Shown: positions 23,613 through 26,558 of the stretch, piece after piece | How positions within the stretch are numbered: the first letter of the stretch is position 1 | How the letters are laid out: each line of letters begins with the position of its first letter | IMG/VR virus record: IMGVR_UViG_3300021960_000048 | Location: 1 to 64,000 of that record | Origin: a virus | Direction: 5' to 3' (one strand) | Length of the DNA: 64,000 bases | The notes under the pieces: generated by a model | The model's database searches: none | What the model was told of the DNA's origin: nothing | Seen by the model: only the letters and a program-made list of their open reading frames with translations | Position numbers and translations under genes: made by a program

Positions 23613-23996
23613 TCAACGGTCTAACCAGTGGGTTCTACCGCCCCAGTAGACATTAAAGCCCTCGTTCTGCAACTCAGCATACAATTCGTTTGTTAGTTGA
23701 TTGCAGCCACATATACAGTCGCGGTCGTCTGCTGATGTGTTGTGAGGCACTTCAACTTCTAAGTCGTAAATGGTGTCGGGGAAGCGGCTTCTACCTTGGT
23801 TGACCCTGTGGTATGAAACTCTTGATGTGATTAAGTTGCGTGGGATTCCAACTGATGTAAGTGGGCGTACTCTGTAAGACCATACACGTACGGATGTTGT
23901 TCCGTACCTTTGCATGTAACAGTCTCCGGGTTCTAAAGTTGGCCTGTCCGGTAGTTCTCTGATTTGTGTTATTAGTTCCGTGATGCGGTTGCTCAT
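23613..23996 (-). CDS. Cassette orphan protein (MSNR...)
   Basis: 127 aa behind a class-1 promoter; CICGC motif. Confidence 0.75.
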   Translation of the reverse strand: MSNRITELITQIRELPDRPTLEPGDCYMQRYGTTSVRVWSYRVRPLTSVGIPRNLITSRVSYHRVNQGRSRFPDTIYDLEVEVPHNTSADDRDCICGCNQLTNELYAELQNEGFNVYWGGRTHWLDR

Positions 23997-24039
23997 GTTC
24001 TATCGGAAGGGGTTAGGGTATATAACATTATGCCTATAG
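23997..24039 (-). promoter_or_regulatory. Class-1 cassette promoter
   Basis: CTATAGG-CATAAT-GTTATATACCCTAACCCCTTCCGATAGAAC-ATG. Confidence 0.8.
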
Positions 24040-24237
24040 GGATTTAATGATGAGTGTTCCCCTAGTGATGTTACACATACACTACCCTTGTATGTGTGTG
24101 CCTGTAAGGGGTATTGGAATTGTATTAATTCTTGTAGAAGGGTTTCCCCCTACGGGGAAACACTTCTAATGATGACCCCTTTTTGTTCACATAGGATGAT
24201 TACACTATATACATGCAAACCTTTATAAGTAAATACA

Positions 24238-24411
24238 CTGCCCCCAATACAGAAGCGAGGCGGCGGAAACAACGCCTCACAACTGCCCCTAGGCACATGA
24301 AGCCTACTAACGTGATGAATGAGATGGGGCGGCTTCTAACGCAGCACCCCTGTGATACAAGGGGTGGTCTGTCCCGATAGACAACCAATGCGAGTACACT
24401 ATTCGGGGCAG
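24238..24411 (+). ncRNA. Candidate structured non-coding RNA of unknown class
   Basis: At least seven nested helices (see findings); G-U pairs and a GAAA loop favour the plus strand; TATA-like boxes at 24205 and 24222. Confidence 0.55.
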
Positions 24412-24412
24412 A

Positions 24413-26224
24413 CTACTGCACCGTTAAACTCGAAGCCAACCTCATAGTTGCTGCTATATCTGATGGTTGTTTACCGACTGTAATTGTCATAACAGAATCA
24501 GTTGTTGAGTATTCCCAATTCACGTCAAATATTTCTTGGCGACCTGCTAATCCACCGTCAACAGATGCAAAGTCCATTATGTCTCCCGCTCTCAAATCAA
24601 ATCGCTCTGGCAAGCCCTCAACTATCCATTGACTGTAAGCAATTCCTTGCCTCATCAATATCTGTCTGCCGAGAGTTTCAGCGTGTGCAACGGTCGTAAC
24701 ACTGTCGTCTTTGATGTATCTATGAACAGGTCTTTCTGAACCTAATGAAACAGTCGCACTAATGTTTAACCCTTCATTTTCAATTGTAACTTTGTTGAAG
24801 AAGTCATCATCGTTTGCATTTCTTTCAATCATTGTTGGATAAAAGTCGAGAGGAACTAATGTCTTTGGAACACGACCTGCTGTGTAAGGTGTCAATGTAG
24901 AATCGTGCAATTCTTTTTTCTTGGCTACGTGAATGTAACCATAAGCGTCTGCGTAGATTTGATATTGTATTGGCCCAGAGTTCACAAAACTCAGCAAAGT
25001 TTGGATTGCTGCGAGTCTTGTTTTTCCTTTGAACTTCAACCCAGTCGGTAATGTAAATGACAAGTCAGAGATGATACGAGCAATAGGTGGATTGTACGAT
25101 GAGTTAGCAACTATGGACTTGATGAGGGTAGCAATATTTCCATTTGCGTGTGCAGGTTGTTCGGTGATATATTCATTCGTCAAGAATCCAAGTGCGTCAA
25201 GACAAGTCAATCGAATACTTTCAGATGATTCTTCAATCCCTGCTACATATCCAGTGAATATCAATGGTGGGTTAGACCACATTCTAGGAGCAAGATGGAC
25301 TTGAATTGTTTCACCTATGGATGCTACGCCACTCCTTCTACCCGCAACTGATGAAATAGTGATTGTTAATTCTCTCGGTGTGTTTAGATTATCTTTGGAA
25401 CTAATTGTTCTTACTCCGTGTAATGGTCTACTACCATTTATCATTACAATTGGTGTTTTAGGTGTCGCTTCATCCTCTGATATTTGACCGTAGATAGTTC
25501 GACCAAAGACTTGTCTTGACCTAACGAAGAATACTTTGTGAGGCCAATTATTTCTTAGGTTGCCTAGTTGAAATTGCCTAGGTCTATTCATCCATTGAAG
25601 TCCTTCGGGATTCCAACCGCCGTTACTATAACCGAGTTTACCTAAGTTAAATGTTGGACTCGGTAGAACCGATGTTGGATAATTGCCTTCTGTTGGTCCA
25701 GTTGTAAATGCAAAACCGCCTCTTGGTCCACCGCCGCGTCTGCTTGTCAAATCGTACTGGTCTGGGAATATCGACGCAGATGCGTAGAGATAACCGAACC
25801 CATCATCTGCCCCGGTGTAGCCGTTGTGAAGATGAGGGTCGAATGGTTTTGGTGATGCGAGATTAGCATAACAGTGAGTTGTTGGTCCGGCTGTCGACCA
25901 TACATTTGAAAGACTGGTCATTGTATCGGGGTGTGGGATTAAACCAAGACCGAAGTCTGTTGGATAGTGGGCGGGTCTGTTTATGGTTTCTTTATCATTG
26001 ACATTCATAGAGTGTTCAGCGACCGTATCTCTTGCTCTATAATTCAACCACTGGACTTCCGCCCATGTTCGAGAAACGAATCGAGCAATTGCCGTTCTCG
26101 GCCTACGTGGGTCTTGCCCTAGTTCCTCAACAAAGTCTTTGAGATTATCCGGCGGAGTAATGACGAACTCATCGTCATCGGGGTCTCTAACGATACGAAC
26201 ATACCGTTCGGCTTCCTCATCCAT
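24413..26224 (-). CDS. Minor tail / baseplate hub-like protein
   Basis: PLIFTGYV...LTCLDALGFL, IYADAYGYIHV, LRAGD hub-like motifs; start MDEEAER is 29 nt after TAAATAAC (the track's upstream extension overlaps groES). Confidence 0.7.
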   Translation of the reverse strand: MDEEAERYVRIVRDPDDDEFVITPPDNLKDFVEELGQDPRRPRTAIARFVSRTWAEVQWLNYRARDTVAEHSMNVNDKETINRPAHYPTDFGLGLIPHPDTMTSLSNVWSTAGPTTHCYANLASPKPFDPHLHNGYTGADDGFGYLYASASIFPDQYDLTSRRGGGPRGGFAFTTGPTEGNYPTSVLPSPTFNLGKLGYSNGGWNPEGLQWMNRPRQFQLGNLRNNWPHKVFFVRSRQVFGRTIYGQISEDEATPKTPIVMINGSRPLHGVRTISSKDNLNTPRELTITISSVAGRRSGVASIGETIQVHLAPRMWSNPPLIFTGYVAGIEESSESIRLTCLDALGFLTNEYITEQPAHANGNIATLIKSIVANSSYNPPIARIISDLSFTLPTGLKFKGKTRLAAIQTLLSFVNSGPIQYQIYADAYGYIHVAKKKELHDSTLTPYTAGRVPKTLVPLDFYPTMIERNANDDDFFNKVTIENEGLNISATVSLGSERPVHRYIKDDSVTTVAHAETLGRQILMRQGIAYSQWIVEGLPERFDLRAGDIMDFASVDGGLAGRQEIFDVNWEYSTTDSVMTITVGKQPSDIAATMRLASSLTVQ

Positions 26225-26291
26225 GCTTATAGACGGTAAAGTAAAGTTATTTACCGTATGCTTAATATTACACTTAAGACTCGAACCACTT

Positions 26292-26558
26292 GTGAAAGTT
26301 CTAACACCGACAAAAGGATATGCCCTAGTGAAGAGATGGATTCCCGAACAAACAACAACAAGTGGAATAATTATACAAGACGAAGCAGCGTCATATGGCT
26401 TTGGAGTGATAGAAGAAATTACTCCTTTTAGTGGAGAAAGCCCATACGAAAAAGGCGCTGTTGTTTTGATAGAAAAAGACTGTGGGACTTCCGTACAGTG
26501 GAATGGAAATGTTTGCTTGATGGTGAAGATAATGCACATAATAGGGGTGGTTGAATGA
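26292..26558 (+). CDS. groES: Co-chaperonin GroES
   Basis: LTPTKGYALVKR...EQTTTSGIII (mobile loop)...IIGVVE; GTG start 30 nt after TTAATATT; ATGA overlap with groEL. Confidence 0.8.
   Translation: MKVLTPTKGYALVKRWIPEQTTTSGIIIQDEAASYGFGVIEEITPFSGESPYEKGAVVLIEKDCGTSVQWNGNVCLMVKIMHIIGVVE

What the first reader, a model, noticed from the sequence alone, without database searches (positions are those of the whole stretch)
24238..24411. Candidate novel multi-junction ncRNA at the replication/structural module boundary
Seen: closing stem CTGCCCC.AATA (24238-24249) / TATT.GGGGCAG (24400-24411). Domain 1 is closed by AGAAGC/GCTTCT (24251/24337) and contains a GAGGCG/CGCCTC hairpin with a G-GAAA-C loop, a TGCCCC/GGGGCG stem, a TAGGC/GCCTA hairpin and an unpaired GTGATGA (box C-like). 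Domain 2 is closed by GCA/TGC and contains CACCCCTGT/ACA.GGGGTG and GGT.TGTC/GACAACC hairpins. Helices abut at junctions and the segment is GC-rich. TATA-like boxes at 24205 and 24222 would place starts at about 24235 or 24251, both helix boundaries. ACTGCCCC occurs twice, allowing an alternative fold. It does not match tRNA, SRP, RNase P or hammerhead consensus as far as I can tell.
Basis: partly seen in the sequence, partly recalled or inferred. Interest (0 to 1): 0.75.

Follow-up and report, generated by a model that had tools for sequence, protein, structure and literature searches.

The report
Strain-specific hairpin cluster, not conserved RNA
The reported 174-base "multi-junction RNA" of this marine archaeal virus is a real but strain-specific pair of GC-rich hairpin modules filling a hypervariable gap behind a gene, while the truly conserved structured element lies just next to it.

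Summary
Folding exactly 24238-24411 reproduces the drawing (-68.1 kcal/mol, z -4.4). The closing stem that makes it a multi-junction depends on where the sequence is cut. With 2-4 more bases, a hairpin (24367-24380/24399-24413) that overlaps the stop codon of the 708-aa gene replaces it.

The genome is a magrovirus-like archaeal tailed virus. Close relatives align colinearly at 85-91% over 10 kb, with one break at exactly 24254-24412. There they carry unrelated 43-48-nt fillers, domain 1 alone, or a different domain 1 with domain 2. No other copy was found in this genome, five relatives' records, IMG/VR, or 185k prokaryote genomes. There is no Rfam or tRNA match. Covariation cannot be tested because all copies are identical.

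Best reading (0.5): two exchangeable hairpin modules in the 3' UTR of the 708-aa gene. A + strand RNA from the conserved CTATATAC box (24205) remains possible (about 0.2).

The neighbouring block, 24046-24184, is the conserved one. It occurs in 31 distinct relatives, and its main hairpin covaries strongly.

The scan had noted this same stretch twice on this genome, and not on other DNA.

The parts
24254..24412 (.). Hypervariable slot between the conserved intergenic block and the stop codon of the 708-aa gene. In this strain it is filled by 159 nt (domains 1 and 2).
   Evidence: It is the only non-homologous break in 10 kb of 85-91% colinear alignment with L005 and L007. Alignment of relatives.
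24251..24338 (.). Module D1. Stem AGAAGC/GCUUCU (24251-56/24332-37) encloses a GNRA-capped hairpin (24257-24278), stem 24284-89/24326-31, hairpin 24290-24306 and a small hairpin 24311-24321.
   Evidence: alone: -33.3 kcal/mol, z -3.9 on +. It is present without D2 in contig L004. It is replaced by 136 other letters in a contig of run X18.
24339..24415 (.). Module D2. Hairpin A is 24345-51/24360-66. Hairpin B is 24367-80/24399-24413 and includes the stop codon.
   Evidence: It folds alone at -34.6 kcal/mol, z -4.65. Hairpin B has probability 0.83-1.0 in longer contexts. D2 is absent from L004, with CTA at both edges of the missing piece.
24238..24249 (+). It lies in the conserved block. Relatives have CTACCCGCAATA or CTACCCCGAATA here.
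   Evidence: Its 3' partner, 24400-24411, pairs better with 24369-24380.
24413..24415 (-). Stop codon (TAG) of the 708-aa gene (24413-26539, minus strand).
24205..24229 (+). Promoter-like CTATATAC box followed 17 nt later by TTTATAAG. It points into the slot and is conserved in all close relatives.
   Evidence: CTATATAC occurs only here and three times in the ORF-free 73.6-74.8 kb region.
24179..24209 (+). 31-mer present twice in the genome, here and at 73712-73742 on the minus strand.
24046..24184 (+). Neighbouring conserved structured block. It comprises AATGATGA (24046-53), hairpin H1 (24072-81/24089-98), hairpin H3 (24135-49/24154-68), ATGATGA (24169-75) and a T5 run (24180-84).
24018..24025 (-). 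TTATATAC promoter box of the 127-aa gene; its ATG lies 29 nt downstream, at 23996.

Best explanation
The segment is the strain-specific content of a hypervariable slot that begins at the stop codon of the 708-aa gene. It is two self-folding GC-rich hairpin modules: D1 at 24251-24338 and D2 at 24339-24415. Strains gain, lose and swap these modules separately.

The 708-aa gene is read on the minus strand, and no oligo-T terminator follows it. The modules are therefore transcribed at least as that gene's 3' untranslated region (inferred). There, stable stem-loops that start at the stop codon most plausibly protect the mRNA's 3' end from exonucleases. They may also act as a buffer against transcription coming the other way from the conserved + strand promoter-like box (inferred).

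The sequence itself is not under conservation. Only 'some filler', often a hairpin, sits there in relatives. It is not a member of a conserved RNA family.
For: - Position: the slot runs exactly from the stop codon to the conserved block. Hairpin B includes the stop codon.
- Variability: window against L005 or L007 is colinear at 85-91% over 10 kb, with one break at 24254-24412. Relatives carry unrelated 43-48-nt fillers, or D1 alone (L004), or nearly nothing (L010). A contig of run X18 has a different 136-nt piece in place of D1 but keeps the D2 region.
- Modularity: D1 and D2 each fold alone, z -3.9 and -4.65.
- Single copy: there is no repeat in the genome, in five relatives' records or in IMG/VR apart from near-identical contigs. 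Models R1 and R2 find nothing in 48 loci.
- The minus strand in context is also highly structured (-80.8 kcal/mol, z -3.0).
- No Rfam or tRNA match.
Against: - The fillers of L005 and L007 type are not significantly structured (z -0.2 to -1.75). A structured 3' UTR is therefore not a conserved requirement at this position.
- The + strand folds slightly better relative to shuffles than the minus strand (z -4.4/-4.6 against -3.5/-3.0).
- A conserved promoter-like box points into the slot on the + strand.
- No transcript data exist for either strand.
- Hairpins are not needed for archaeal termination (established knowledge), so the protective role is only an inference.
Confidence: 0.5

Rival explanations
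1. It is a discrete + strand non-coding RNA, or the structured 5' part of an antisense RNA against the 3' end of the 708-aa mRNA. It would be made from the conserved CTATATAC box and start at about 24233-24237. The structured body would be an accessory, strain-specific cargo.
For: - CTATATAC (24205) resembles the gene promoters (TTATATAC, ATG at +28/29). The same spacing puts a start 4-5 nt before the first helix.
- The box is conserved in all close relatives, including L010.
- CTATATAC occurs otherwise only in the ORF-free 73.6-74.8 kb region.
- There is a weak shared 'leader' between 24218-24260 (+) and 74512-74470 (-).
- The + strand RNA from 24234 folds at z -4.57.
Against: - No oligo-T terminator follows on the + strand, so the RNA would run antisense into the gene.
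- The body is absent from relatives that keep the promoter.
- The leader similarity scores only about 3 sd above shuffles, and comparable scores occur elsewhere in the genome.
- There are no transcript data.
- There is no D box for the proposed K-turn.
Confidence: 0.2
2. It is a functionless by-product. The filler would have been built by local duplication and inversion of a 12-15-nt motif and by illegitimate recombination in a tolerant spacer. Its stability would simply follow from repeated CCCC/GGGG blocks.
For: - The motif CTG[CT]CCC[CG](A)ATA[CG] occurs three times only here: 24238 (+), 24369 (+) and 24411 (-). That gives both the 'closing stem' and hairpin B.
- L004 differs by a clean 77-nt loss bounded by CTA microhomology.
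- The slot is the only break in 10 kb.
- Alternative folds are nearly isoenergetic.
- Other fillers are unstructured.
Against: - D1 has no internal repeats of that motif apart from CTGCCCC, yet it folds at z -3.9.
- The identical insert persists, with one SNP outside the helices, in DNA runs from several studies and years.
Confidence: 0.2
3. It acts at the DNA level, as part of an origin-like or recombination-prone region together with the neighbouring palindromic block. Cruciform or hairpin DNA, rather than RNA, would be the functional form.
For: - The adjacent conserved hairpin H3 is a perfect palindrome with no G-U in about 230 cells.
- The composite block is duplicated at 73.7 kb next to a 75-nt AT-rich tract.
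- The slot is a recombination breakpoint.
Against: - The insert itself is not conserved, so it cannot be an essential cis element.
- Its + strand fold contains G-U pairs.
- Nothing links it to replication.
Confidence: 0.05

Closest known systems
3' UTR / terminator-proximal stem-loops of viral and archaeal mRNAs
   Same: It starts at the stop codon, has GC-rich stable hairpins, and its sequence varies freely between strains. One hairpin (GAGGCG-GGAAAC-CGCCTC type) is the same kind that serves as a terminator hairpin in unrelated viral contigs.
   Different: No U-tract follows on either strand. It has four or five hairpins in 160 nt, which is far more than usual. Relatives manage with unstructured fillers.
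Promoter/stem-loop 'mobile regulatory cassettes' (PeSLs) of hyperplastic regions in T4-type phages (recalled from the literature, not checked here)
   Same: A conserved promoter-like sequence sits next to stem-loops at a spot where close relatives differ by replacement of the DNA in between.
   Different: No ORF is carried, the host domain and promoter type are archaeal, and there is only one such slot in the 10 kb compared.
Archaeal C/D box sRNAs (L7Ae-binding K-turn RNAs)
   Same: A GUGAUGA heptamer (24312-24318) fits box C, and the host is archaeal.
   Different: There is no CUGA box D anywhere in the segment, the box is internal, the size is 174 nt rather than 50-70 nt, and no Rfam snoRNA/sRNA model matches.
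MITE-like or REP/Correia-type small palindromic insertions
   Same: It is an insertion-like presence/absence polymorphism. Its ends can pair (11 of 12). CTA lies at both edges of D2.
   Different: It is single copy. No other copy was found in this genome, in relatives, in IMG/VR or in 185k prokaryote genomes. The left 'repeat' belongs to the conserved flank.
The neighbouring conserved block 24046-24184
   Same: Same intergenic region, same + orientation, and hairpins rich in C and G runs.
   Different: That block is found in 31 distinct relatives with strong covariation. The reported segment is found in none.

Membership tests
Any Rfam 15 family | Covariance-model score at or above the family's gathering score | tested here: not met
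   There were 0 matches in the whole window. At E<=10 on 23950-24470, the only match inside the segment is hairpin ribozyme at 14.4 bits against 65.
tRNA / tmRNA / tRNA-like | Cloverleaf recognised by ARAGORN | tested here: not met
   0 genes in the window.
Archaeal C/D box sRNA | Box C (RUGAUGA) near the 5' end | tested here: inconclusive
   GUGAUGA is present at 24312-24318, but it is internal, 75 nt from any proposed 5' end.
Archaeal C/D box sRNA | Box D (CUGA) near the 3' end, forming a K-turn with box C | tested here: not met
   There is no CTGA in 24238-24411 (read directly).
Conserved structured ncRNA (any new family) | Homologues in related genomes with compensatory base changes | tested here: not met
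   Relatives lack the segment. R1 and R2 find nothing in 48 loci. The only other copies are identical (L003, L004; X12 and X13 with one SNP at 24237, outside the helices), so covariation is untestable.
Intrinsic / oligo-T terminator | Hairpin followed by a U-tract (bacterial type), or T5 or longer (archaeal type) | tested here: not met
   The scan lists only a weak minus-strand site at 24256-24240. There is no run of five T on either strand within 24238-24440. The nearest T5 is at 24180-24184 on +, upstream of the segment.
MITE-like mobile element | Multiple copies | tested here: not met
MITE-like mobile element | Terminal inverted repeats belonging to the insert, plus a target-site duplication | tested here: inconclusive
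   CTA lies at both edges of the 77 nt missing in L004. The 12-nt inverted repeat has its left arm in the conserved flank, which is present in relatives without the insert.
Small protein gene | Conserved ORF with a start and family similarity | tested here: not met
   The ORFs 24213-24380 (+, 55 aa) and 24200-24388 (-, 62 aa) have no Pfam match. The ATG at 24213 is lost in L007. The body is absent from relatives.

The most novel reading that the evidence does not exclude
The slot is an accessory non-coding RNA cassette of a magrovirus. A dedicated promoter type (CTATATAC, found only at non-coding regions of this genome) with a shared short leader would drive a strain-specific structured RNA body. 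Strains would swap that body as modules, in the manner of an anti-defence or host-interaction locus. This would be the first such RNA described for viruses of Marine Group II archaea.
Probability: 0.12. Interest if true: 0.65.

Novelty: new member of a known kind. Interest (0 to 1): 0.27.

Why it matters
As reported, it matters little. It is a strain-specific structured filler with no sign of conservation, so it should not be counted as a new RNA family.

It is useful as a marker of a recombination-prone slot in an abundant, uncultured group of marine archaeal viruses. It also led to the neighbouring block, which is conserved across dozens of related viruses with clear compensatory changes and deserves its own study. 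If stranded RNA data showed a discrete + strand transcript, the slot would become a rare case of a swappable viral ncRNA cassette in archaea.

Tried and rejected
- Cultured-phage similarity: no DNA or protein match for the region or the 708-aa protein. The terminase is only 26-32% identical to Bacillus-type phages.
- My first reading was a bacterial sigma-70 or T7-like promoter in the 31-mer. I dropped it once gene content (DNA polymerase B, RFC, XPF-HHH, Prim-Pol, GroEL) and the TTATATAC-29-ATG rule pointed to an archaeal magrovirus-like virus (PMC5434244).
- The pattern GAGGCG..GGAAAC..CGCCTC gave 15 viral contigs. All but the two known ones are unrelated terminator hairpins.
- The metagenome scan with the 31-mer core found only three contigs already held.
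- The 127-aa protein as a query gave no new contigs.
- Two gapped patterns from D2 and D1 found nothing in 185k prokaryote genomes, so there is no near-identical host source. Diverged copies would be missed.
- RNA-labelled runs hold only small shares and are kept as contigs, so they say nothing about strand, ends or level. In run X16 the contigs leave 24329-24400 uncovered; this is not interpreted.
- The 708-aa protein has no Pfam, PHROG, NCBIfam or PDB-sequence match.
- The long-range pairing of 24034-24070 with 24188-24228 in the conserved block is broken in L010 and L011 and was not pursued.
- A genome-wide 174-nt fold scan on a 29-nt grid does not contain the exact window, so it gives no rank for it.

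Full report
**Context.**
The window is the first 64 kb of an 82,791-bp IMG/VR virus record that CheckV rates as complete. Nearly all genes lie on the minus strand. Gene content is as follows:
- Structural genes: portal, terminase, HK97-type capsid, prohead protease and tape measure.
- Replication and repair genes: family B DNA polymerase, RFC-like clamp loader, XPF/ERCC4-HHH nuclease, Prim-Pol and an SF2 helicase.
- Others: a GroEL-type chaperonin and an AAA_5 plus VWA pair.

This is the set described for magroviruses, the viruses assigned to Marine Group II archaea (PMC5434244).

Genes carry TTATATAC with the ATG 28-29 nt after its first base. That fits archaeal TATA boxes and leaderless mRNAs (established knowledge).

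The finding lies in the 416-nt gap between two minus-strand genes. One is a 708-aa gene (24413-26539) with no family match. The other is a 127-aa gene (23613-23996).

**The observation.**
The minus strand is also unusually stable (z -3.5). Rfam and ARAGORN find nothing.

The closing stem that turns the hairpins into one multi-junction RNA is not robust:
- Its 3' half (24400-24411) pairs even better with 24369-24380.
- With only 2-4 more bases at the 3' end, the closing stem falls to probability 0.17.
- With 25-30 nt of flank it falls to 0.0.
- Hairpin 24367-24380/24399-24413 rises to 0.83-1.0.

The cause is a short motif, CTG[CT]CCC[CG](A)ATA[CG]. It occurs three times, only here: twice direct and once inverted. 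Several CCCC and GGGG blocks add to the effect.

The robust picture is two self-contained modules. D1 is 24251-24338 (z -3.9). D2 is 24339-24415 (z -4.65).

**Comparison with relatives.**
Thirteen IMG/VR contigs encode the 708-aa protein at 75-100% identity (one at 50%).
- The part of the gap next to the 127-aa gene (23997-24253) is 89-95% identical in them.
- Homology stops sharply at 24253/24254 and resumes at the stop codon.
- Over 10 kb, window against L005 or L007 is colinear at 85-91%, and this is the only break.

The slot holds different things in different strains:

| Strain or source | Content of the slot |
|---|---|
| This strain and contig L003 | The full 159 nt (D1 and D2) |
| L004 | D1 only; the missing 77 nt are bounded by CTA on both sides |
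| L005, L008, L009, L011, L013, L015 | An unrelated 44-48 nt |
| L006, L007 | Another unrelated 43-46 nt |
| L010 | Almost nothing |
| A contig of run X18 (<90% identical) | 136 other letters in place of D1, yet it aligns from 24341 on |

The short fillers are not significantly structured.

DNA runs X12 and X13, from different studies, carry the whole insert with one SNP (24237, outside the helices). No sequence variation is therefore available to test covariation.

**Search for other copies.**
None was found:
- in the rest of the genome;
- in five relatives' whole records;
- in IMG/VR by exact or degenerate patterns, where the extra hits were ordinary terminator hairpins;
- in 241 million metagenome records, via the adjacent 31-mer;
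- in 185,579 prokaryote genomes, via two gapped patterns.

Covariance models of D1 and D2 found only themselves among 48 loci of relatives at 41-90% protein identity. Small ORFs in the segment have no family match and no conserved start.

**What it most likely is.**
The minus strand must be transcribed through the stop codon, and no run of five T follows. The modules are therefore part of the 3' UTR of the 708-aa mRNA (inferred). In that sense the region folds at -80.8 kcal/mol (z -3.0), with the first hairpin starting at the stop codon.

I rate 'exchangeable 3' UTR hairpin modules in a hypervariable slot' at 0.5. The role would be 3'-end protection or a buffer against convergent transcription, and that role is inferred.

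The main rival (0.2) is a + strand RNA.
- For it: CTATATAC at 24205 is conserved in all close relatives and resembles the gene promoters. It would place a start at 24233-24234. It is found otherwise only in the ORF-free 73.6-74.8 kb region. There is also a weak shared leader.
- Against it: such an RNA has no terminator and would run antisense into the gene, and its 'body' is dispensable in relatives.

A neutral origin by local duplication/inversion and illegitimate recombination is rated 0.2. It fits the thrice-repeated motif and the CTA-bounded 77-nt difference. A DNA-level role is rated 0.05.

**What is conserved instead.**
The adjacent block, 24046-24184, has the following parts:
- an AATGATGA motif;
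- a CA/TG hairpin, H1 (24072-81/24089-98);
- a long hairpin, H3 (24135-49/24154-68), followed by ATGATGA;
- a T5 run.

The same architecture recurs beside the 708-aa homologue in most relatives. A model built from seven of them (R3) hits 44 loci, 31 of them distinct sequences.
- In H3, 8 of 9 pairs show changes on both sides, 98.7% of cells pair, and there is no G-U at all.
- H1 keeps U-G wobbles that would be C-A on the other strand.
- The whole structure pairs in 87.8% of cells, against 73% in shuffles and 30-65% when partners are slid.
- Complete relatives have one copy.
- This genome has a diverged second copy, with the same 31-mer, at about 73.7 kb next to an AT-rich tract.

This block was noted separately by the scan (e1-6073075). 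It is either a + strand small RNA ending at the T run or a DNA-level element such as an origin. I did not resolve which.

**Verdict.**
The stretch is real and strikingly foldable. However, it is strain-specific and modular, and its multi-junction form depends on the chosen ends. It is not a member of any known RNA family, and by the comparative test it is not a new conserved family either.

Noticed in passing
window 24046-24184 (+): A conserved structured block next to the finding, made of hairpins H1 and H3, three TAATGAT-type motifs and a T5 run. Model R3 finds it in 31 distinct relatives. H3 covaries strongly (8 of 9 pairs, no G-U) and H1 keeps U-G wobbles. It is either a small + strand RNA or an origin-like DNA element.
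   Followed up: partly
genome 73712-73880 (-) = L002:1501-1670; window 24073-24209 (+): The composite block plus a 31-mer (CTTTTTGYTCACATAGGWTGATTACACTATA) occurs twice in the genome in opposite orientations. The second copy abuts a 75-nt AT-rich tract.
   Followed up: partly
genome 73593-74765 (L034:9593-10765): A 1.17-kb region with no ORF of 60 aa or more and no Rfam match. It begins with a CTATATAC box (74533, minus strand). Only its ends are conserved in the complete relative G003.
   Followed up: partly
window 14815, 24018, 28615, 43845, 46703, 52445, 59092 (-), and others: TTATATAC boxes lie 28-29 nt before the ATG of minus-strand genes, with C-rich spacers and no Shine-Dalgarno sequence. 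They look like archaeal promoters of leaderless mRNAs.
   Followed up: partly
L069-L074, L083, L094: 1244-1385 (+): In one subgroup of relatives the R3 block lies upstream of the 708-aa homologue and in the opposite orientation, so the block has moved relative to the gene.
   Followed up: no
window 24413-26539 (-); L007:4316-6127, L010:4308-6119, L014:2160-3971: The 708-aa ORF is only 603 aa in several relatives. The first roughly 105 residues are a separate or interrupted reading frame there (L007 has three stops in the equivalent stretch).
   Followed up: no
genome 76470-79200 (-): The most stable 174-nt windows of the minus strand cluster in the early region: 77373, 77431, 78968 and 76503 (regression z -3.2 to -4.5).
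   Followed up: no
window 24416-24440: The last 8 or so codons of the 708-aa gene differ much more between this strain and L004/L005 than the rest of the gene does. The variable zone seems to reach slightly into the coding end.
   Followed up: no
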